A stretch of DNA of 33,583 nt from a virus (lineage: Duplodnaviria > Heunggongvirae > Uroviricota > Caudoviricetes). Shown here one piece after another: positions 1-33,583 of the stretch. The stretch is from IMG/VR virus record IMGVR_UViG_2684622669_000021, positions 1 to 33,583 of that record; one strand, 5' to 3'. The position numbers and the translations under genes are program-made. The notes under the pieces are model-generated. The model saw only the letters and a list, made by a program, of their open reading frames with translations, was not told the origin of the DNA and did no database searches. How positions within the stretch are numbered: position 1 is the stretch's first letter; every line of letters begins with the position of its first letter.

Positions 1-432
1 CAGTTTTTCTCCGTTATCACAGCGGAACTCGAACCCGTCAGAGCACCATCGCTGATTGCTTTCTTTCACGGCCACTCTGCCTGTATGTGCCCGTTTCGAT
101 GGCGGTACAGCAGGTTTTCGCTCAAGCAACAGCGCATTCTGGCGCATGATCCGGTAAACACGTTTGGCATTGATCGCAGGCATACCATCAAGTTCTGCCT
201 GTCTGCGAAGCAGCGCCCATACCCGACGATAACCATACGTGGGCAGCTCCCCGATAACATGGTGTATACGGAGAAGCACATCCGTATCATCAGTGTGACG
301 ACTGCGGCGGCCATCCATCCAGTCATCGGTTCGTCTGAGAATGACGTGCAACTGCGCACGCGACACCCGGAGACAACGGCTGACTAAGCTTACTCCCCAT
401 CCCCGGGCAATAAGGGCGCGTGCGCTATCCAC
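1..432 (-). CDS. insD: IS2 transposase OrfB (InsD, DDE catalytic subunit), truncated by window edge
   Basis: An open minus-strand frame to position 1 translates ...[99 protein letters not shown]..., matching IS2 InsD. It is absent from the ORF track because it has no in-window stop. Confidence 0.85.
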
Positions 433-755
433 TTTTTTGCCCGTCCATATTCAACGGCTTCTTTGAGGAGTTCATTTTCCATCGTTTTCTTGCCGAGCAG
501 GCGCTGGAGTTCTTTAATCTGCTTCATTGCGGCAGCAAGTTCAGAGGCAGGAACAACCTGTTCTCCGGCGGCCACAGCAGTAAGACTTCCTTCCTGGTAT
601 TGCTTACGCCAGAGAAATAACTGGCTGGCTGCTACACCATGTTGCCGGGCAACGAGGGAGACCGTCATCCCCGGTTCAAAGCTCTGCTGAACAATTGCGA
701 TCTTTTCCTGTGTGGTACGCCGTCTGCGTTTCTCCGGCCCTAAGACATCAATCAT
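390..755 (-). CDS. insC: IS2 transposase OrfA (InsC), HTH DNA-binding subunit
   Basis: Translation [56 protein letters not shown]... recognised as IS2 InsC. The track ORF 390..800 carries a 15-aa extension; the ATG at 753-755 is the likely start. Confidence 0.85.
432..438 (-). other. A6G slippery heptamer, candidate -1 programmed frameshift site joining InsC and InsD
   Basis: Minus-strand AAAAAAG (plus-strand CTTTTTT at 432-438) lies in the orfA/orfB overlap. This is the IS3-family frameshift motif. Confidence 0.6.
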
Positions 756-896
756 CTGTTCTCCAATGACTAGTCTAAAAACTAGTATTAAGACTATCAC
801 TTAAATAAGTGATACTGGTTGTCTGGAGATTCAGGGGGCCAGTCTAAACCCACCAAAAATTATCACACTCAAAATAATTAAAAACACAACACTTCC

Positions 897-3371
897 TTAT
901 TGCGGAGTGACATCCTGAGGTCGCCACCAGTATGTCTGGTTAAACTCTTTCTTCGAACGTTGCTCCATTTTACGCAAATAACCTGGTGAAAAATACTCCT
1001 GCATCTGGTTAAAGATCATGTGATCGAGAGCCGCCTTTAAGTACCAGAGATTCGCACCTGGCATCAGACCTTTCCCCAGCTTGACCAGATCACCACCAGT
1101 CTGCTCATTCTTCCCTTCCACAGCATTTAACGGTATGCCCTGAGCAATCTTCACTACGTCATCAACCAGACCAGCTACCGGGCCAAGCATCGACGCCAGC
1201 GCGCCGCTTCCGTACCTAGTGTGATCTGACAATAAAAAGTCACCGTAAAGGCCAAGACCACCACCTTTCAGTAGAGCACCAAGCCAAAATTTAGCAGCAT
1301 CTTCTCCTGTCATCTCACGAGGATTACGACCAGACGCAAGGTCGTTAAGTTGCTGCGACAAAGCGCCAAGAATGGTCGTACTGGCAATAAACGTCGCAAT
1401 ATATGCCGCACGCCCACCAGCAGACGGCATACCCATAGCGCGTGACCAGTGACGCATAACCACCGAGATAGGGAACGATTTAAACAGGAAAACACTTCTC
1501 GTTAATTCACCTTTCCATGTTCCACGCTGAATACCAGAACCGGTTATCAGTTGCTCACGTGCTCCCGGTGTAATAACAGCCATATCAACTTCTTCAGTTA
1601 CGGCACCGAGCAGTTTACGCATTGCCTCAAATTTCACGCGTTCAGGCTCACCAAGATGTTTAACTGCTGAATCAGGGATACGCATAATGCTTTCCGGTGT
1701 CAGCATCGTATTATTACCGTTCCCCCAGTCCTCCTGTTGCGCCAGCTTCCATACTCTCCAGTCTGTGTCAGTAATTCCTTTGCTTTTCAGGATACGAAAA
1801 TCAGAGTCATCGAGGCTACGAAGGTCTGGTGTCCGTGACACTACTTCTCCCAGGCTTCCCATCATGGTTACGCCATAGGCGCGCTTGTGTGCATCTGACC
1901 ATGCTGTAAGCCCACTGGCACGCATTACCGCCGTTGCCGCCCAGCGAGACACTGACGGCCCCATATTATCCATCGCCCAGCGGTTAACGCTGCCAAGTAG
2001 AGATTCCATCGCCAGACCAGCGCGGCGCGCCCGCGCAAGTTCTGTACGGTTCGTTGGGTCCATAGCTTCAAGCTGGTTGCGGAATAACTGGTTCATTGGA
2101 AGGTTGGTAACCTTCGCAGACAGATACATGGTTCCAAGATCAGAGAACGATGACAGCAACGCGGATCCGAGTCTGCTGGCAACCAGCCAGTTGCGGATAT
2201 TGTCAGACCATCGCGCGATGTGCGGATTTGCTACAGGCTGTGTCTTTCCGGAAATAAAGTTGTACAGATTCTCTGTGTTGTTCGCCAGCCGCTCGACTTT
2301 ACCGGTTTTACTCGGGTTAGCTGTTGCCGTTTCTGCCTTCACCTGATCAAGAAGAGAGCGGAAAACATGATCTGGGTTTGGGCCATATGTTTCCACCAGT
2401 GCAATATCTTTACTGATACCTTCCAGGTGACCGACCATGATTTCCCATAGAGAGCGATCGCCATAAAGTTGCTGATATTGCAGATAGGAATCTGCATCTT
2501 TGAAATGTATCTGTCGTGATGCATTACCACGGTTAGCACGTGCGCCGGAAATTCGCATTCCGGTATCAGTAAGCTTATTCAGCCCACCAGTAGCGATCGT
2601 GTTATAAGCCTCTCCAAGAAATGCAGACAACTCGGCATCGTTCATCAGTTGTCCATCGGCTCGGATATAATATTTGCGATCCAGCTTACCTATAACATCG
2701 CTAACCCACTTATCCTTTGATACCGCCCCAACCTTTTCCATAGAATGATGTTGAGGGATCCCCCAGTTTTCGAGATAGCCAATGTCCCCGCCAGCATCAT
2801 TAAACCGGCGGCGCAGTAGCTCTGTCACTTCTCTCCACGCCTTAGCACCTTTTCTTGCTTTAGCATTGCCAGTATTTTGCCCTCGCATTTCATATACCAG
2901 GTCACGCACGCCAGCTTCATCTTCAAACAGGCCAAAAAAGCGAGGATCAACTGCTTCAAATGCCTCTTGCAATTGACTCAATGCATAATCACGAGTGGCT
3001 TTTGTTCTGGACTCAACAGAGAGGAAATTCGATTTACCGTCTGCATTAAAAGCAATAGTACGGTTAAGAGCGCCAAGTTTCCCATCAGCCCCTTGATAGC
3101 TATTGATAAATTTATCCAATCTCTGACGTGCGGCTATAGTGAGGGCCACACGACGTTTCTTTAATGCCGCTTCTCGCTGTAATTCTTCAGATGCCAATTG
3201 TGCTGCACGATATAGCCGCTCTGATTCGGAAAGTTGTCTCCACGACATCGGGTCATCACGAGCAATGGAGCGCATATTTCGATAAATGCGGTCTTCAATG
3301 TTCTGTATTTCTCGCGCCGTTAACGCGCGCTGCGCCGCCTGCTGGACCGCTTGTATACATTCCTGTCTCAT
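897..3371 (-). CDS. Large virion protein, putative internal/DNA-ejection protein (824 aa); last gene of the virion operon in this window
   Basis: 824-aa ORF whose start lies 5 nt downstream of the preceding gene's stop. Position after the other large virion proteins matches the gp15/gp16-type internal proteins of short-tailed phages. No tail tube, sheath or chaperone genes are nearby, so a tape-measure role is unlikely. Confidence 0.45.
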   Translation of the reverse strand: MRQECIQAVQQAAQRALTAREIQNIEDRIYRNMRSIARDDPMSWRQLSESERLYRAAQLASEELQREAALKKRRVALTIAARQRLDKFINSYQGADGKLGALNRTIAFNADGKSNFLSVESRTKATRDYALSQLQEAFEAVDPRFFGLFEDEAGVRDLVYEMRGQNTGNAKARKGAKAWREVTELLRRRFNDAGGDIGYLENWGIPQHHSMEKVGAVSKDKWVSDVIGKLDRKYYIRADGQLMNDAELSAFLGEAYNTIATGGLNKLTDTGMRISGARANRGNASRQIHFKDADSYLQYQQLYGDRSLWEIMVGHLEGISKDIALVETYGPNPDHVFRSLLDQVKAETATANPSKTGKVERLANNTENLYNFISGKTQPVANPHIARWSDNIRNWLVASRLGSALLSSFSDLGTMYLSAKVTNLPMNQLFRNQLEAMDPTNRTELARARRAGLAMESLLGSVNRWAMDNMGPSVSRWAATAVMRASGLTAWSDAHKRAYGVTMMGSLGEVVSRTPDLRSLDDSDFRILKSKGITDTDWRVWKLAQQEDWGNGNNTMLTPESIMRIPDSAVKHLGEPERVKFEAMRKLLGAVTEEVDMAVITPGAREQLITGSGIQRGTWKGELTRSVFLFKSFPISVVMRHWSRAMGMPSAGGRAAYIATFIASTTILGALSQQLNDLASGRNPREMTGEDAAKFWLGALLKGGGLGLYGDFLLSDHTRYGSGALASMLGPVAGLVDDVVKIAQGIPLNAVEGKNEQTGGDLVKLGKGLMPGANLWYLKAALDHMIFNQMQEYFSPGYLRKMEQRSKKEFNQTYWWRPQDVTPQ

Positions 3372-16875: not shown

Positions 16876-17301
16876 ATCAATGACTCCGTACGCAATTAAA
16901 TTATTACCAATTTAACCATATATGATTTATTTATCGTAGACAGTTGACATTTAACGCACGAATTATTACCTTTCAGGTAACTAAAGAGTTCATTCCGGTT
17001 ACTAACCTGACTGGCTTGTCGTTAAATTGAACAGGTGGAGTGAGCTTTTATTTTGAGCAGTACGGCGTATGGCACATGCGCCGATAGCGGTCTGGATACG
17101 TTTAAGGGGCACCCTCCCTTGCTCGGGCAAACGAACCAGGTAGCCGGAATGTGCAAGTCGAGCGGTTTTATTCCGCGCACAGGGTTCACCATCCCGGCGA
17201 TTCGGTGTGACACCTCGGAAGAGACGAGGGTACAACGATGAGAGCATTTATGGAGCCGCGATAAAGTGTGGTGCCTTAACAGGCTAAGTGCTCTCAGCGT
17301 T

Positions 17302-21857: not shown

Positions 21858-22628
21858 TCACTCTCCTTTGATGCGAATACCAGCAGCGCGCTCGGCTTCA
21901 CTTTGTTCCCAAAACCACTTGTGAAGCGCCATAAGCTTTTCGTCAATCGGTGCATATTTGCGATTAAAGTAGGCCTGAGCATCTTTCTCAGATTCGTCCG
22001 GTAATTCGCCAGGGCCAAACAGTGTGTTATAAATCCATGCTAGTCCGCTCTTAGCGTCGCCAGTTGCCTGCCATTCGATAATGGCAGCCTGCATGACCAG
22101 AATGTTTTTCCCGATTAATAGGTCCAGTTCTTTGTACCGGTTGCGGATGTATGCATTCTCGCTTTGTAATTTTGCGTTGCGCTTTTCTGAGGCTTCAAGT
22201 AACGCCTGCTTATCGCGTAGCGCTTCTTCCAGTTCAGCAACATGGCATTCACTATCAATAAGGTTGTTCTCTGCTGCTTCAAGCTCAACACGCAGCTTCC
22301 CAACCGTAAGCGCAATCTCCTCGTTCTCCTGATCGCGGCGTTTTATGTATTGCTGGTTTCTTTCCCGTTCATCCAGTAGTGCCAGCACGGTAGCCGGGTT
22401 AGCCTCTGCTATGAATTCAGCGTTTGCATAAGCCTGAGCATCTGTTTCAACCAGGCAGTTAACATGACATTCTGCAATCACGCCACCGGGTTCTCCTTTC
22501 CATTTTTGACAAACAAAAACTCCTGTTATATTCCCATGCTGATTGACCGATGTATGCCCTACGATGTAGCTCCCTTTCGTTGCCTTTTCTGCCGCTTCAC
22601 GCAGTGCCTGATAGTTAATTTTGCTCAC
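21858..22628 (-). CDS. ead/Ea22-like family protein, paralogue 1 (256 aa)
   Basis: GTG start after AAGGAGGCAACCA. N-terminus [18 protein letters not shown]...; central coiled coil. GTGA overlap with the upstream paralogue. Confidence 0.7.
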   Translation of the reverse strand: MSKINYQALREAAEKATKGSYIVGHTSVNQHGNITGVFVCQKWKGEPGGVIAECHVNCLVETDAQAYANAEFIAEANPATVLALLDERERNQQYIKRRDQENEEIALTVGKLRVELEAAENNLIDSECHVAELEEALRDKQALLEASEKRNAKLQSENAYIRNRYKELDLLIGKNILVMQAAIIEWQATGDAKSGLAWIYNTLFGPGELPDESEKDAQAYFNRKYAPIDEKLMALHKWFWEQSEAERAAGIRIKGE

Positions 22629-24179: not shown

Positions 24180-24877
24180 TGGCTGCTTCCTTTGCGAATC
24201 TGTTCCGCCCATTCTTCAAGGGATTTCTCCGCATATTCACCAGACAGGCCATCAATCGGATGCGCTTCATTAGCCAACTCTTCTTTCGCTGACAAAATCA
24301 TGCGTGTAACGTCGAAAACTTCACGCAAAGACTTATTGATAAATCCGTGATTGAACGCAGCAGCAAGACGGCTGGCGGTATAGTTAATCCCCTCGTTGCG
24401 TGCTTCCGCACGAATTTCAGCCAGAAAAGCATCGGTAGCTGGAGTTTCGCTGTGGTGTAGGGCATCGTTGATAATCATTGCAGCAACACCAGCCTGCCCT
24501 GCATCCGTGACCGACACATGATCAAGAGTTACAGCCATTGCGTGTTTCAGCCCGGCGTTCTCTGCCACCAGAGCCGCGAGCTTAGTCTCAAGCGGTGCTA
24601 TTCGGCACATAGCATCAATATTTGTGTCCTCCAGGCGCTTAATTTCACCAAGTAGCTCCAGTGCAACCTTTGGGTTGAATGCGGCAATATAACGAGCGTT
24701 GTTCTCTGCGTTTTTCAGTCCATCAAAGCCGGTCCATTTGATAACATCTTCACATCGTTTATCACCGGGCGTATGCACAGCATACGTACCTGTACCCGTC
24801 GAAATAAACGCGACCCATTCGCCCTGTGTTGCCTGTTTTGCTATCTCACGTAGTGCCTGATAGTTAATTTTGCTCAC
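24176..24877 (-). CDS. ead/Ea22-like family protein, paralogue 4 (233 aa)
   Basis: GTG start at 24875-24877 after AGGAGGCAACCA. N-terminus [23 protein letters not shown]...; conserved ...[15 protein letters not shown]... segment. Confidence 0.7.
24177..24204. repeat. Junction repeat (copy 3, diverged)
   Basis: CACTGGCTGCTTCCTTTGCGAATCTGTT, a diverged copy of the same junction. Confidence 0.6.
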
Positions 24878-30062: not shown

Positions 30063-32165
30063 ATGACTGAGATTGAGGAGAATATGCTCCTGCCGGTTTC
30101 AGGTCAGATTCTGCCTGTTCGATGGCTGGCACAGCACGGCAGCGAAAAACCGATCACACACGTTTCGCGGGGCGAACTACGCGCATTACATAACGCACAG
30201 GATGAAAAACTTCCCGCCGTTACCGCGCTGGCCATCTCAAATAAAGCAGCGCAACTCGAACCGCTGGAAATTCGCGATCTCCACAAACTGGTTCGTGACA
30301 CTGACAAAGTTTTCCCTAATCCTGGTAATTCAGACCTGGGACTGATGACTGCTTTTTTCGAAGCCTACCTGGGCGCTGACTACACCGATCGCGGTCTGCT
30401 GACAAAAGAGTGGATGAAAGGAAATCGTGTTTCACGCATCACCCGCACGGCTTCCGGTGCTAATGCCGGTGGAGGGAACAAAACCGATCGCAATCCGAAT
30501 TTAGTACACACCTTCGATACGCTGGATGTGGAGATTGCAGCGGCCACACTTCCGATGGATTTTAATATTTATGAAATTCCGGGCAGCGTTTATCGTCGCG
30601 CAAAAGAAGTCGTCCGGAAGAAAGAAAGTCCGTTCAAAGAATGGTCCGCGGCACTTCGCGCAATCCCGGGTATCCTGGATTATTCCCGCGCCGCTATTTT
30701 TGCACTTATCCGGAGCGCACACCCTGAGTTTTATCATTACCCGGGACGTCTTCAGGGGTATATCAACGCCTATTTAACAGAGACTGATCACGAGAACCCT
30801 TCCGAGGAAACTCTCGCTGCTGCACGACATACACCGGAAAAAGATATCCTGGAAGAAGTTAACCGCGAACTGGCTGCTGAACGCGAAACAGAAGAAGAAA
30901 AAAATAATGAGGAAAAATCACAACCGTCTGACGCAATGGCAGATGAACAGGCAACGGCTGAAACAATGGAACCGGATACAACTGAACATCGCCAGGACAC
31001 GCAATCGCTGGATGCTCAGGCACAGATAGATCCAGTTAATCAGGTAAAAGTTACCGCTGACGAAGTAAACAAAATTATGCAAGCAGCCAATATCAGCCAG
31101 CCTGACGCCGATAAGTTGCTTGCGGCCTCTCGCGGTGAATTTGTTGCAGGGATTAGCGACCCGAATGATCCGAAATGGGTGAAGGGGATTGAAACCCGCG
31201 ATTCTGTGAACCAGAACCAACAAGAATCGGAACAGAACGACCAGAAAGCGGAACAAAACAGCCCAAATGCGTTACAAAACGAGCCAGAAACGAAACAGCC
31301 TGAACCAGTGGCGCAACAGGAAGTGGAAAAAGTTTGCAATGCCTGCGGTCAGTCTGGCGGGGATAACTGCCCTGACTGTGGTGCGGTGATGGGCAACGCA
31401 ACATACCAGGAAACATTCGATGACGAGAATCAGGTTGAAGTTCAGGAAAATGATCCGGAGGAAATGGAAGGCGCTGAACATCCACAAAAGGAGAATGCTG
31501 GCAGCGCTCAGGACCACGCCAGCGATAATGAAACTGGCGAGACGGCAGATCCCTTAATTGCAGTGAACGGTCATCACATTATCACATCCACCAGCAGAGT
31601 GTGGTACCACCTGATGATCGACCTTGAAACAATGGGAACCAACACCAATGCGCCCATCGTGGTTATTGGTGCGGTTTTCTTCGACCCACAAACAGGGGAA
31701 ATCGGGCCAGTATTTTATATCGTTATCAGTCTGACTGACGCAATGAATACAGGGGCTGTTCCTGACGGTGGAACCATCGAATGGTGGCTGAAGCAGTCCA
31801 GTGAAGCCAGAGCTGCCATTTTAACAGACCAGGTAAAACTGAAGGATGCCCTTTCGCGGTTTCGGGAGTTCATCAACGAATACTCAGATGAAAAATTAGT
31901 TCAGGTATGGGGTAATGGTGCAACTTTCGATAACGCAATTTTGCGCACCTCATACGAACACCTGGACATCCCCTGCCCGTGGCGCTACTACAACGATCGC
32001 GATGTACGCACAATCGTTGAGCTGGGGAAAGCCATAGACTTCGATGCCAGAACGGCTATTCCATTCGAAGGTGAGCGCCATAATGCACTTGATGACGCCC
32101 GTTACCAGGCAAAATACGTTTCAGCTATCTGGCAAAAACTGATCCCGAGTCAGGCTGATTCTTAA
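30063..32165 (+). CDS. RecE-like protein: RecE N-terminal/linker region fused to a C-terminal DEDDh 3'-5' exonuclease domain (700 aa)
   Basis: N-terminus [36 protein letters not shown]..., the acidic Gln/Glu-rich linker and the Zn-ribbon [20 protein letters not shown] are recognised from RecE (exodeoxyribonuclease VIII). The C-terminal 200 aa carry DnaQ-like motifs: Exo I MIDLET, Exo [14 protein letters not shown], Exo [16 protein letters not shown]. Confidence 0.7.
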
Positions 32166-32496: not shown

Positions 32497-33583
32497 CGTA
32501 GCCGGTCTTTACGAAAAGTTTGATCGCAGAACTGGCAGAGTTTACTACCAGTATAAAAATCCTGTGACTGGAAAATTTCACGGACTCGGAACAGACAAAG
32601 GTAAGGCAGAAAAAATCGCTTCCACAGCCAATCAGCGAATAGCTGCAGCAGAAGCTGAATATTTCATGCGCAAAATTGATGAAAGTCCGTCAGCAACAAA
32701 ACGTCGGGGTATCAGATTAAAGGCATGGGTTGATCGATATCTGAAAATACAGGACACGCGACTGAAAAATGGAGATATTGCAGCTACAACTCACAAAGAA
32801 AAAGCCCGAATGGCTGCATACCTGGTTTCCCGTCTGGGAAACCACCCATTGAAAGAACTGGAAGTAAGAGACTTTGCATTAATACTGGATGAGTGGCTGG
32901 ATAAAGACATGGTCAGCACAGCGAGAGTAAATCGCGGATTATGGGTTGATATTTATAAAGAAGCACAGCATGCAGGGGAAGTCCCTCCCGGATGGAATCC
33001 TCCGGAGGCTACCCGTAAACCGATCCCTAAAGTAACCAGAGCCAGGCTCACTCTGGAAGACTGGCAAAAAATTTACAACGCAACGCCTGAAAAACACTTT
33101 ATCCGTAACGCAATGCTTCTTGCGATTGTTACTGGTCAGCGCCGTGATGACATTTGCCACATGCGTTTTTCAGATGTGTGGAACGAACACTTGCATATCA
33201 CCCAGGGAAAAACCGGAATGCGTCTGGCGTTACCGCTTACACTACGCTGTGATGCTATTGGGATAACGTTAAAAGAAGTTATTGATGGGTGCCGAGACAG
33301 AATATTAAGTCCATATCTAATCCATAGTCGGCACCAGAAACAACCGAAGCCGATGAGTAAAGACAACCTGAGCGACTACTTTGCCAAAGCACGGGATCTG
33401 GCTGGGATAATTCCACCAGCAGGAAAAACTCCGCCAACATTTCATGAACAACGCTCTCTATCAGAACGGCTGTACCGTGCACAGGGTATCGATACAAAAA
33501 CATTACTAGGACATAAAGTCCAGGCAACCACCGATCGCTATAACGATACTCGAGGTCAGGAATGGGTTAAGTTGGTTATTTGA
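32465..33583 (+). CDS. int: Lambda-family tyrosine integrase (372 aa); stop codon is the last triplet of the window
   Basis: N-terminal ...YYQYKNPVTGKFHGLGTDKGKA... and C-terminal ...TFHEQRSLSERLYRAQGIDTKTLLGHKVQATTDRYNDTRGQEWVKL parallel lambda Int (...YYCYRDPRTGKEFGLGRDRR... and ...FHELRSLSARLYEKQ...LLGHKSDTMASQYRDDRGREWDKI). The catalytic-region R, H-x-x-R and Y are present. Confidence 0.9.
   Translation: MSPRPRKNSTDVAGLYEKFDRRTGRVYYQYKNPVTGKFHGLGTDKGKAEKIASTANQRIAAAEAEYFMRKIDESPSATKRRGIRLKAWVDRYLKIQDTRLKNGDIAATTHKEKARMAAYLVSRLGNHPLKELEVRDFALILDEWLDKDMVSTARVNRGLWVDIYKEAQHAGEVPPGWNPPEATRKPIPKVTRARLTLEDWQKIYNATPEKHFIRNAMLLAIVTGQRRDDICHMRFSDVWNEHLHITQGKTGMRLALPLTLRCDAIGITLKEVIDGCRDRILSPYLIHSRHQKQPKPMSKDNLSDYFAKARDLAGIIPPAGKTPPTFHEQRSLSERLYRAQGIDTKTLLGHKVQATTDRYNDTRGQEWVKLVI

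What the first reader, a model, noticed from the sequence alone, without database searches (positions are those of the whole stretch)
1..897. IS2 inserted 50 bp downstream of the last visible virion gene
The IS2 terminus at 846 lies 50 bp past the stop at 897 of the 824-aa virion protein gene. The tail-fibre or tailspike and lysis genes, which should follow on the minus strand, are not in the window. The insertion may separate distal late genes from their promoter and could make the prophage defective. Because the element is cut by the window edge, neither the target-site duplication nor a possible deletion can be assessed.
Basis: seen in the sequence. Interest (0 to 1): 0.4.

Follow-up and report, generated by a model that had tools for sequence, protein, structure and literature searches.

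The report
IS2 disrupts small prophage membrane gene
An ordinary copy of the insertion sequence IS2 has landed in a small, conserved but usually unannotated membrane-protein gene at the end of the virion-gene operon of a phiV10-like E. coli prophage. It looks cut off only because the draft-genome contig ends inside the IS.

Summary
Window 1-846 is the left 846 bp of IS2 (99% identical to annotated 1331-bp copies). It lies on the minus strand with its IRL terminus exactly at 846. The stop codon of the 824-aa virion gene (phiV10 p20 homologue) is at 897-899, 50 nt away.

Three corrections:
- Window position 1 is the physical end of draft contig BBWB01000018.1 (GCA_001515025.1). IS2 broke the assembly, so the other IS end is on another contig.
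- The site is not intergenic. IS2 sits in codon 14 of a 57-aa, two-transmembrane gene that starts 9 nt after the 824-aa stop. The gene is syntenic in E. coli, Klebsiella, Salmonella and Enterobacter prophages (dN/dS 0.10-0.26). Its region is uninterrupted in all 205 complete E. coli genomes that carry it.
- In IS-free relatives the operon ends about 0.5 kb further on, at a conserved terminator. Opposite-strand genes follow, including the BRO-N anti-repressor. The tailspike and lysis cassettes each carry their own copy of the promoter-like module found before the portal operon.

Polarity on tailspike or lysis genes is therefore unlikely. The probable effect is loss of one accessory gene, perhaps two. 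This is ordinary and low in interest.

The parts
1..846 (-). Left 846 bp of IS2 (IS3 family). The element continues beyond the contig end; 485 bp, including IRR, are not in the sequence.
   Evidence: 99% ungapped identity to two 1331-bp annotated IS2 copies, ending exactly at 846. Window position 1 is contig position 1.
806..846 (-). IS2 left inverted repeat (IRL), with its TA-3' terminus at 846.
   Evidence: The reverse complement equals the published IRL TAGACTGGCCCCCTGAATCTCCAGACAACCAATATCACTTA with one mismatch (PMC3219604).
390..755 (-). IS2 orfA (121 aa, HTH_Tnp_1), intact.
   Evidence: Translation. Called gene with PF01527.
1..438 (-). N-terminal part of IS2 orfB, reached by -1 frameshift at the A6G window (432-438). 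The frame is open to the contig end.
   Evidence: Three-frame translation and A6G position. A6G slippery window as described in PMC3219604.
847..851 (.). AACCC, the presumed target site and one copy of the expected 5-bp duplication. The second copy would lie beyond the contig end.
   Evidence: IS-free relative L001 reads ...AATAAC|AACCC|ACCAAAA across the site. IS2 copies in L002 and L003 have 5-bp duplications CGTAC and GTCAG. The duplication at this site is inferred, not seen.
847..887 (-). 5' remnant (GTG start plus 13 codons) of a 57-aa two-transmembrane protein gene, disrupted by IS2. It now reads MFLIILSVIIFGG-FRLAP-stop.
   Evidence: An intact 57-aa ORF lies at the same place in L001 and in phage phiv142-3. 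Twelve homologue clusters of 56-58 aa exist in five genera. The gene is syntenic, 9-10 nt after the 824-aa gene, in Klebsiella, Salmonella and Enterobacter. dN/dS is 0.10-0.26, with a conserved Shine-Dalgarno TAAGGAG.
897..3371 (-). 824-aa virion structural protein gene (phiV10 p20 homologue), intact.
   Evidence: PHROG 684, 1283 bits.
16914..16980 (-). Promoter-like module upstream of the portal/head/tail operon that ends at the IS2 site. It comprises the TTACCTGAAAGGTAA palindrome (16966-16980), CATATATGGTT (16914-16924) and a -10-like TAATAA.
   Evidence: The same module lies upstream of the tailspike and lysis cassettes in phiV10 and L001.

Best explanation
**What it is.** This is a recent, simple transposition of IS2 into a phiV10-like (Uetakevirus) prophage. 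IS2 has the same orientation as the late genes.

**Where it landed.** It entered codon 14 of a 57-aa, two-transmembrane accessory gene. That gene is translated from a Shine-Dalgarno sequence overlapping the stop codon of the 824-aa internal-virion protein gene. It is the first gene of a variable small-membrane-protein cassette (57 aa plus 98 aa in this lineage) that closes the head/tail/ejection-protein operon.

**Shown.**
- The identity and exact end of IS2.
- That the target is a real gene under purifying selection.
- That the sequence stops because the draft contig ends inside the multicopy IS.
- That all visible structural genes are full length.

**Inferred.**
- The insertion destroys the 57-aa protein.
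- It is probably polar on the 98-aa gene just downstream.
- It does not cut the tailspike or lysis genes off from a promoter. In IS-free relatives these lie behind a conserved terminator and an opposite-strand anti-repressor block, and each has its own copy of the family's late-type promoter module.
- The prophage is therefore more likely still able to make particles than not.
For: **IS2.** 99% identity to annotated IS2 copies; the terminus is exact, orfA is intact, the A6G window is present and orfB is open.

**Junction.** It is base-precise against IS-free relatives.

**Contig end.** The 824-aa protein is found on one contig, BBWB01000018.1, with only 896 bases beyond the gene. Window 1-900 equals L006 13371-12472 at 100%.

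**The 57-aa gene is real.**
- The ORF is present in L001 and in phage phiv142-3.
- There are 12 homologue clusters of 56-58 aa at 75-96% identity, with 31 invariant positions.
- Position is the same in Klebsiella, Salmonella and Enterobacter prophages.
- dN/dS is 0.10-0.26, and the Shine-Dalgarno sequence is conserved with ATG, GTG or TTG starts.
- It has two hydrophobic segments.
- The gene region is uninterrupted in all 208 records (205 of 5426 complete E. coli genomes) that carry it.

**Accessory nature.** phiV10 has an unrelated 46-aa two-TM gene (p21) in the slot. L003 has a 62-aa ORF plus a lipoprotein-like ORF.

**Operon end.** The terminator AGGCCGCTTTCGCGGCCT plus a T-run follows the 98-aa gene. 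It is conserved in phiV10, ZX5 and TL-2011b and is annotated as a terminator in phiV10.

**Separate units.**
- The 195-nt region upstream of the tailspike is conserved across genera.
- CATATRTGGTT, 7 nt, then a -10-like hexamer lies upstream of the portal, tailspike and lysis genes. There are 8 sites in phiV10 against 1.5 expected and 5 in L001 against 0.76 expected.
- That element persists upstream of the lysis cassette in five relatives whose surrounding sequence is otherwise unrelated.
- TTACC-N5-GGTAA occurs at 14 sites in phiV10 against 0.56 expected. All 12 outside the start of the terminase-small gene are intergenic.

**Visible genes.** ORF lengths in the window match phiV10 p01-p20.
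Against: - The left IS2 end, the target duplication and everything beyond are not in the sequence, and I could not retrieve them. A simple insertion is the default assumption, not an observation.
- No transcription data exist for this phage family in the papers I could read. The promoter module is a motif inference.
- If late transcription is antiterminated and runs from the portal promoter through to the lysis genes, an IS2 in the path could matter.
- The window's prophage has a different immunity, replication and integrase region from phiV10. Regulation inferred from phiV10 may not transfer fully.
- The function of the 57-aa and 98-aa proteins is unknown: no Pfam hit for either, no PHROG hit for the 57-aa protein, and PHROG 3075 'unknown function' for the 98-aa protein.
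Confidence: 0.75

Rival explanations
1. IS2 is polar on the distal late genes (tailspike, holins, endolysin, spanin), cutting them off from the late promoter and making the prophage defective.
For: - IS2 lies on the late strand between the structural genes and the place where the tailspike and lysis genes sit in relatives.
- IS2 has long been known to exert polar effects (my own knowledge of the classical gal and lambda literature, not tested here).
- phiV10 has several predicted terminators inside its rightward transcription units. That would fit an antitermination mechanism with long read-through transcripts.
Against: - A conserved strong intrinsic terminator already ends the operon about 0.5 kb downstream of the site in IS-free relatives.
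- An opposite-strand block with the experimentally studied BRO-N anti-repressor lies in between.
- The tailspike and lysis cassettes each have their own copy of the module found upstream of the portal operon, conserved where flanking sequence is not.
- If transcription were antiterminated, it would also tend to read through IS2 (inference).
- No intrinsic terminator-like site is found inside IS2.
Confidence: 0.1
2. IS2 marks the edge of a rearrangement. An IS2-mediated adjacent deletion, or recombination between two IS2 copies, has removed or displaced the distal ~8 kb (accessory genes, anti-repressor, tailspike, lysis genes, attL). The prophage is then a truncated remnant.
For: - The left flank is unseen because the contig ends in IS2.
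- No distal genes are present in the window.
- E. coli genomes carry many IS2 copies: 22,188 places in 4802 genomes.
- Relatives with damaging IS2 insertions exist. L002 has IS2 inside the 824-aa gene.
Against: - Contigs ending inside a multicopy IS are the normal outcome of short-read assembly and say nothing about rearrangement.
- The visible junction is base-precise.
- All visible phage genes are full length.
- The two other IS2 insertions in this prophage family are simple insertions with 5-bp duplications.
Confidence: 0.12
3. Assembly artefact. The IS2 sequence was wrongly joined to the prophage contig and there is no insertion at this site.
For: - The IS2 part lies at the very end of a draft contig.
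- Three of its eight or nine differences from other IS2 copies fall within the last 24 bases.
- No other genome has this junction.
Against: - The join falls exactly at the terminal nucleotide of IRL. A true transposition gives that; a chance misjoin would almost never do so.
- The phage sequence stops in the middle of a gene that is continuous in 205 other genomes.
Confidence: 0.03

Closest known systems
IS2 of Escherichia coli (IS3 family, IS2 group)
   Same: 99% nucleotide identity over the 846 visible bases. The IRL has the TA-3' end, orfA and orfB are present, and the A6G -1 frameshift window is in place.
   Different: Nothing of substance differs: eight or nine point differences from two other copies. 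Only 846 of 1331 bp are in the sequence.
Escherichia phage phiV10 / Salmonella phage epsilon15 (genus Uetakevirus), and the phage records phiv142-3 and HEMP4
   Same: The late region has the same gene order and is 96.5-99% identical in nucleotides. All structural genes are the same length. The related phage ZX5 integrates at the 3' end of guaA and is inducible with mitomycin C (PMC9782041).
   Different: The window's prophage has a different repressor, replication and integrase region from phiV10. It carries the 57-aa/98-aa cassette, as phiv142-3 and HEMP4 do, rather than phiV10 p21. That cassette is interrupted by IS2 here.
IS2 insertions in related prophages: NZ_CP169309 (L002) and NZ_CP070111 (L003)
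   Same: Full-length IS2 in the same orientation as the late genes, within about 2 kb of the same place, each with a 5-bp target duplication.
   Different: The sites differ. L002's is inside the 824-aa virion gene, which certainly inactivates that gene. L003's is in a small opposite-strand gene just past the terminator. Neither shares the window's junction.
Small membrane-protein accessory (moron-like) cassettes at operon ends of temperate phages, such as phiV10 p21
   Same: Same slot directly after the last ejection/internal-virion protein gene. Same size class, with two predicted transmembrane helices, followed by the same terminator.
   Different: There is no detectable sequence similarity between p21 (PHROG 7892) and the 57-aa protein, which matches no PHROG or Pfam family. 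No function is known for either.

Membership tests
IS2 (IS3 family) | Nucleotide identity to IS2 at isoform level (>=95%) | tested here: met
   99.05% and 98.94% over 846 ungapped bases against two copies annotated 'IS3-like element IS2 family transposase'.
IS2 (IS3 family) | Left inverted repeat TAGACTGGCC..., ending in TA-3' | tested here: met
   The reverse complement of 806-846 matches the published IRL with one mismatch.
IS2 (IS3 family) | Two overlapping frames, orfA and orfB, joined by -1 frameshift at an A6G window | tested here: met
   orfA (121 aa) is intact, A6G lies at 432-438, and orfB is open to the contig end. PF01527 is recorded on orfA.
IS2 (IS3 family) | Full length 1331 bp with a right inverted repeat | not testable with these tools
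   The contig ends at IS2 position 846. Copies in L002 and L003 are 1331 bp.
IS2 (IS3 family) | 5-bp target-site duplication | not testable with these tools
   Only one side is visible (AACCC at 847-851). L002 and L003 have 5-bp duplications. Scans for the predicted left junction found nothing in viral contigs, and the right junction is absent from genome contigs.
IS2 (IS3 family) | Complete DDE catalytic domain in OrfB | not tested
   Only about 145 N-terminal residues of OrfB lie in the window.
Uetakevirus (phiV10/epsilon15-like) prophage | Late-gene order and sequence from terminase through portal, capsid, tail and internal virion proteins | tested here: met
   98.7% nucleotide identity to phiV10 over 7.1 kb. 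tblastn gives 98-100% for p01, p02, p04, p06, p07 and p52-p55. ORF lengths match.
Uetakevirus (phiV10/epsilon15-like) prophage | Tailspike plus lysis cassette distal to the internal virion protein genes | not testable with these tools
   These genes are absent from the window. They would lie beyond the contig end.
Protein-coding gene status of the 57-aa ORF | Conserved length, position and ribosome-binding site, with purifying selection | tested here: met
   dN/dS 0.10-0.26, and the gene lies 9-10 nt after the 824-aa gene in four genera.

The most novel reading that the evidence does not exclude
The strain is a natural knock-out of an uncharacterised but conserved 57-aa two-TM protein, and probably of its 98-aa partner. 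These genes sit directly behind the ejection-protein genes of Uetakevirus prophages in about 4% of complete E. coli genomes and in Klebsiella, Salmonella and Enterobacter.

If this variable cassette is a superinfection-exclusion or lysogenic-conversion module, the insertion changes the lysogen's phage susceptibility rather than the prophage's viability.

Three independent IS2 insertions in the same orientation within about 2.7 kb of this operon end (window, L002, L003) might then reflect a regional hot spot or selection. I have no test of either idea.
Probability: 0.12. Interest if true: 0.35.

Novelty: already known. Interest (0 to 1): 0.12.

Why it matters
It matters little in itself. IS insertions in prophages are common, and this one probably removes only accessory genes.

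There are two practical lessons:
- A feature 'cut by the window edge' can be a contig end caused by the IS itself. Absence of downstream genes then says nothing about the prophage.
- The apparent 195-nt spacer after the 824-aa gene hides a real, conserved small gene. The annotation shows only the two flanking genes in the complete E. coli genomes sampled, so 'intergenic' insertions there are in fact gene disruptions.

Tried and rejected
**Searches for the junction**
- Exact-match scan for the right junction: none in genome contigs or viral contigs.
- The predicted left junction (AATAACAACCC + TGGATTTGCCCC): none in viral contigs.
- I did not scan metagenome contigs, because an isolate draft assembly is unlikely to be there.
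- No complete RefSeq E. coli genome has the junction.

**Finding the sister contig**
- I considered a look-up through the 98-aa protein. I dropped it because look-ups return at most 10 places with the best-flanked first, and this protein occurs in hundreds of genomes.

**Source strain**
- A paper search for BBWB01 found nothing.

**Function of the small proteins**
- The 57-aa protein has no Pfam or PHROG hit. The 98-aa protein has only PHROG 3075 'unknown function'.

**Motif search**
- AGGTAATAGAAT, as a shared late motif, has no match in the window. The informative element turned out to be CATATRTGGTT.

**Hybrid promoter from the outward -35 in IS2 IRR**
- This assumes the flank GGGTTGTTATT... 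The hexamers at spacer 16-18 (GGGTTG, GGTTGT, GTTGTT) do not resemble a -10 (-35 as described in PMC3219604). A reporter study found no promoter activity in the IS2 right end alone (PMC12095673). I rejected the idea as unlikely.

**Scan of IS2 itself**
- No sigma-70-like promoter or intrinsic terminator was found.
Full report
**1. The observation**

Window 1-846 is IS2. It aligns without gaps to two full-length copies annotated 'IS3-like element IS2 family transposase', in NZ_CP169309 (L002) and NZ_CP070111 (L003). Identity is 99.05% and 98.94%, and both alignments stop exactly at 846. Both reference copies are 1331 bp, with ends TGGATTTGCC... and ...GGCCAGTCTA and 5-bp target duplications CGTAC and GTCAG.

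The element lies on the minus strand.
- The reverse complement of 806-846 is the published IS2 left inverted repeat with one mismatch (IRL oligonucleotide in PMC3219604).
- orfA (121 aa, 390-755) is intact.
- The A6G frameshift window lies at 432-438.
- The orfB frame is open from there to base 1.

The 824-aa ORF is 897-3371 on the minus strand, with its TAA at 897-899.

**2. What the surrounding element is**

The region right of 846 is a phiV10/epsilon15-like (Uetakevirus) prophage. Over 7.1 kb it is 98.7% identical to phiV10, and 96.5-99% identical to phiv142-3, ZX5, PAS61 and HEMP4.

The 824-aa protein is the phiV10 p20 homologue and matches PHROG 684, 'virion structural protein'. ORFs from terminase to this gene have the same lengths as phiV10 p01-p20. 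A tyrosine integrase ends the window at 33583.

The early region is mosaic. p52-p55 and the late genes are shared with phiV10. The repressor, cro-like, replication and integrase genes are not.

**3. Why the element is 'cut'**

The exact 824-aa protein is on record on a single contig, BBWB01000018.1 of draft assembly GCA_001515025.1 (114,481 bp). Only 896 bases lie beyond the gene. Window 1-900 equals the end of that contig at 100%.

The window edge is therefore the contig end: the assembly broke inside a multicopy IS. E. coli genomes carry IS2 at 22,188 places in 4802 of 5426 complete genomes. The missing tailspike and lysis genes are confirmed absent from the window by tblastn. That absence says nothing about whether the strain has them.

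I could not reach the sister contig. The right junction is in neither genome contigs nor viral contigs, the predicted left junction is not in viral contigs, and no complete E. coli genome has the junction.

**4. The insertion site is inside a gene**

IS-free relatives match from base 847 onward at 100%. NZ_AP022222 (L001) is one; its 824-aa gene region is 99.7% identical to the window's. Across the site L001 reads ...AATAAC AACCC ACCAAAA....

There, a 57-aa ORF (MFLIILSVIIFGGLLFIDRYKYFLNPQTQAICWFIFVVQGIVLVASLIEGRPLIFTG) starts with GTG 9 nt after the 824-aa stop. It runs across the site. A 98-aa membrane-protein gene follows 12 nt later. The annotation of L001 does not list the 57-aa ORF, and neither does the record of phage phiv142-3, which also has it.

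The evidence that it is a real gene:
- The protein database holds 12 clusters of 56-58 aa at 75-96% identity. They come from E. coli, Citrobacter, Klebsiella, Salmonella and Enterobacter, with 31 invariant positions.
- In Klebsiella oxytoca, Salmonella and Enterobacter hormaechei prophages the gene sits in the same place, 9-10 nt after an 824-aa gene.
- Pairwise dN/dS is 0.10-0.26 with dS up to 0.97.
- The Shine-Dalgarno sequence TAAGGAG, overlapping the upstream stop codon, is conserved while the start codon varies among ATG, GTG and TTG.
- It has two hydrophobic segments, residues 1-19 and 29-50.

The gene region is present and uninterrupted in all 208 matching records, from 205 of 5426 complete E. 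coli genomes. In the 40 records listed, the annotation shows only its flanking genes.

In the window only the start codon and 13 codons remain (847-887). The reading frame runs into IRL and stops after five more codons: MFLIILSVIIFGG-FRLAP.

The cassette is accessory. phiV10 has an unrelated 46-aa two-TM gene (p21) in this slot. L003 has a 62-aa ORF plus a lipoprotein-like ORF. ZX5, PAS61 and phiV10 share only the terminator with the L001-type cassette.

**5. Would the insertion cut off the tailspike and lysis genes?**

In L001, phiV10, phiv142-3, L002 and L003 the order after the 824-aa gene is as follows:
- the small membrane-gene cassette;
- a hairpin terminator;
- a block on the opposite strand (small genes, BRO-N protein, an 85-aa gene);
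- back on the late strand, the tailspike;
- in some relatives an opposite-strand acyltransferase;
- the two holin-like genes, the endolysin and Rz.

The terminator (AGGCCGCTTTCGCGGCCT, 7 pairs of which 6 are G-C, followed by TGTTTTT) lies right after the 98-aa gene. It is conserved across the family and annotated in phiV10. The BRO-N protein of the related phage ZX5 was studied experimentally as an anti-repressor, and ZX5 is inducible with mitomycin C (PMC9782041).

The 195-nt region between the 85-aa gene and the tailspike is conserved from E. coli to Salmonella, Klebsiella and Enterobacter. It contains a compound module:
- a TTACC-N5-GGTAAT palindrome;
- about 30 nt later, CATATRTGGTT;
- 7 nt later, a -10-like hexamer.

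The same module precedes the portal operon (window 16914-16980; phiV10 3252-3330) and the lysis cassette (phiV10 24692-24760; L001 2343-2353). Upstream of the lysis cassette, the CATAT(A/G)TGGTT element and the -10-like hexamer persist in five relatives whose surrounding sequence is otherwise unrelated.

The counts are above chance:
- CATATRTGGTT: 8 sites in phiV10 against 1.5 expected, and 5 in L001 against 0.76 expected.
- TTACC-N5-GGTAA with at most one mismatch: 14 in phiV10 against 0.56 expected. All 12 outside the start of the terminase-small gene are intergenic.

I read this as three separately promoted late units: portal to accessory cassette, tailspike, and lysis. This is an inference from motifs. 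I found no transcript mapping for the family.

On this reading IS2 sits at the 3' end of the first unit. It can affect only the 57-aa gene (destroyed) and the 98-aa gene (probably polar).

IS2 itself shows no intrinsic terminator or sigma-70-like promoter in the simple scan. A hybrid promoter from the outward -35 in IRR (PMC3219604) is unlikely, because the expected flank offers no -10 at the right spacing. The IS2 right end alone had no promoter activity in a reporter study (PMC12095673).

**6. Verdict**

The best explanation (0.75) is a recent, strain-specific, simple IS2 insertion that knocks out an accessory small membrane-protein gene of an otherwise intact-looking prophage, with the contig ending in the IS.

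The rivals:
- Polarity on distal late genes, 0.10.
- IS-mediated deletion or rearrangement beyond the contig end, 0.12.
- Misassembly, 0.03.

The kind of event is already known, and interest is low (0.12). The most novel reading still open is that the disrupted cassette is a superinfection-exclusion or conversion module and that IS2 hits this operon end recurrently. I give that about 0.12.

Noticed in passing
window 16914-16980 (minus strand); phiV10 L012 3252-3330, 20877-20950, 24692-24765; L001 5127-5181 and 2343-2353: A compound promoter-like module recurs upstream of the portal operon, the tailspike gene and the lysis cassette of phiV10-like phages. It consists of the TTACC-N5-GGTAAT palindrome, then about 30 nt, then CATATRTGGTT (part of the palindrome CCATATATGG), then 7 nt, then a -10-like hexamer with no -35. 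The layout, an inverted repeat in place of a -35, recalls activator-dependent late promoters such as those of P1 (from memory). I found no description of it in the papers read.
   Followed up: partly
phiV10 L012: 87, 105, 3252, 20497, 20877, 24692, 26870, 31953, 32015, 32727, 32775, 33112, 35070, 35132; window 16966, 20015, 20033: TTACC-N5-GGTAA occurs 14 times in phiV10 against 0.56 expected. Except for two sites at the start of the terminase-small gene, all are intergenic. Four sites flank the repressor gene p40, like a dispersed operator set. The window's prophage has a different repressor region with no such sites, yet keeps the three sites in its late region. Whether the binder is the repressor or the shared regulator p55 is open.
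   Followed up: partly
L001 5221-5236; phiV10 L012 20822-20837: A LexA-box-like palindrome (CTGTATAAATATACAG in L001) lies directly upstream of the 85-aa gene that heads the opposite-strand block containing the BRO-N anti-repressor. It is conserved in Salmonella and Enterobacter relatives. This suggests SOS-controlled anti-repressor induction, as in phage 186 and the Gifsy phages (from memory).
   Followed up: no
L002 10017-11347; L003 7516-8846: There are two further independent full-length IS2 insertions in related prophages, both in the same orientation as the one in the window. L002's is inside the 824-aa gene (duplication CGTAC). L003's is in a small opposite-strand gene just past the terminator (duplication GTCAG). 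Three hits within about 2.7 kb could be chance or regional preference.
   Followed up: partly
L001 7868-8041 (minus strand), plus 205 complete E. coli genomes: The 57-aa gene is not annotated in any of the RefSeq records sampled, nor in the phiv142-3 GenBank record, although homologues are called in other assemblies. This is a systematic small-gene annotation gap.
   Followed up: yes
Slot after the 824-aa gene: phiV10 L004 6854-6994; L001 7559-8041; L003 8967-9583: At least three unrelated small membrane or lipoprotein cassettes occupy the same slot between the last internal-virion protein gene and a conserved bidirectional terminator. That looks like a hot spot for accessory-gene exchange.
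   Followed up: partly
window 30063-32165 (+): A 700-aa protein combines an Exonuc_VIII (RecE-like) segment with a C-terminal Rv2179c-like 3'-5' exoribonuclease domain. It differs from the RecE/RecT fusion p37 of phiV10.
   Followed up: no
window 5, 7, 24 and 804-805: Three of the differences from other IS2 copies lie within 24 bases of the contig end and may be assembly end errors. At 804-805 the centre of the small hairpin next to IRL reads TTATTTAA instead of TTAAATAA, a change that keeps the palindrome.
   Followed up: no
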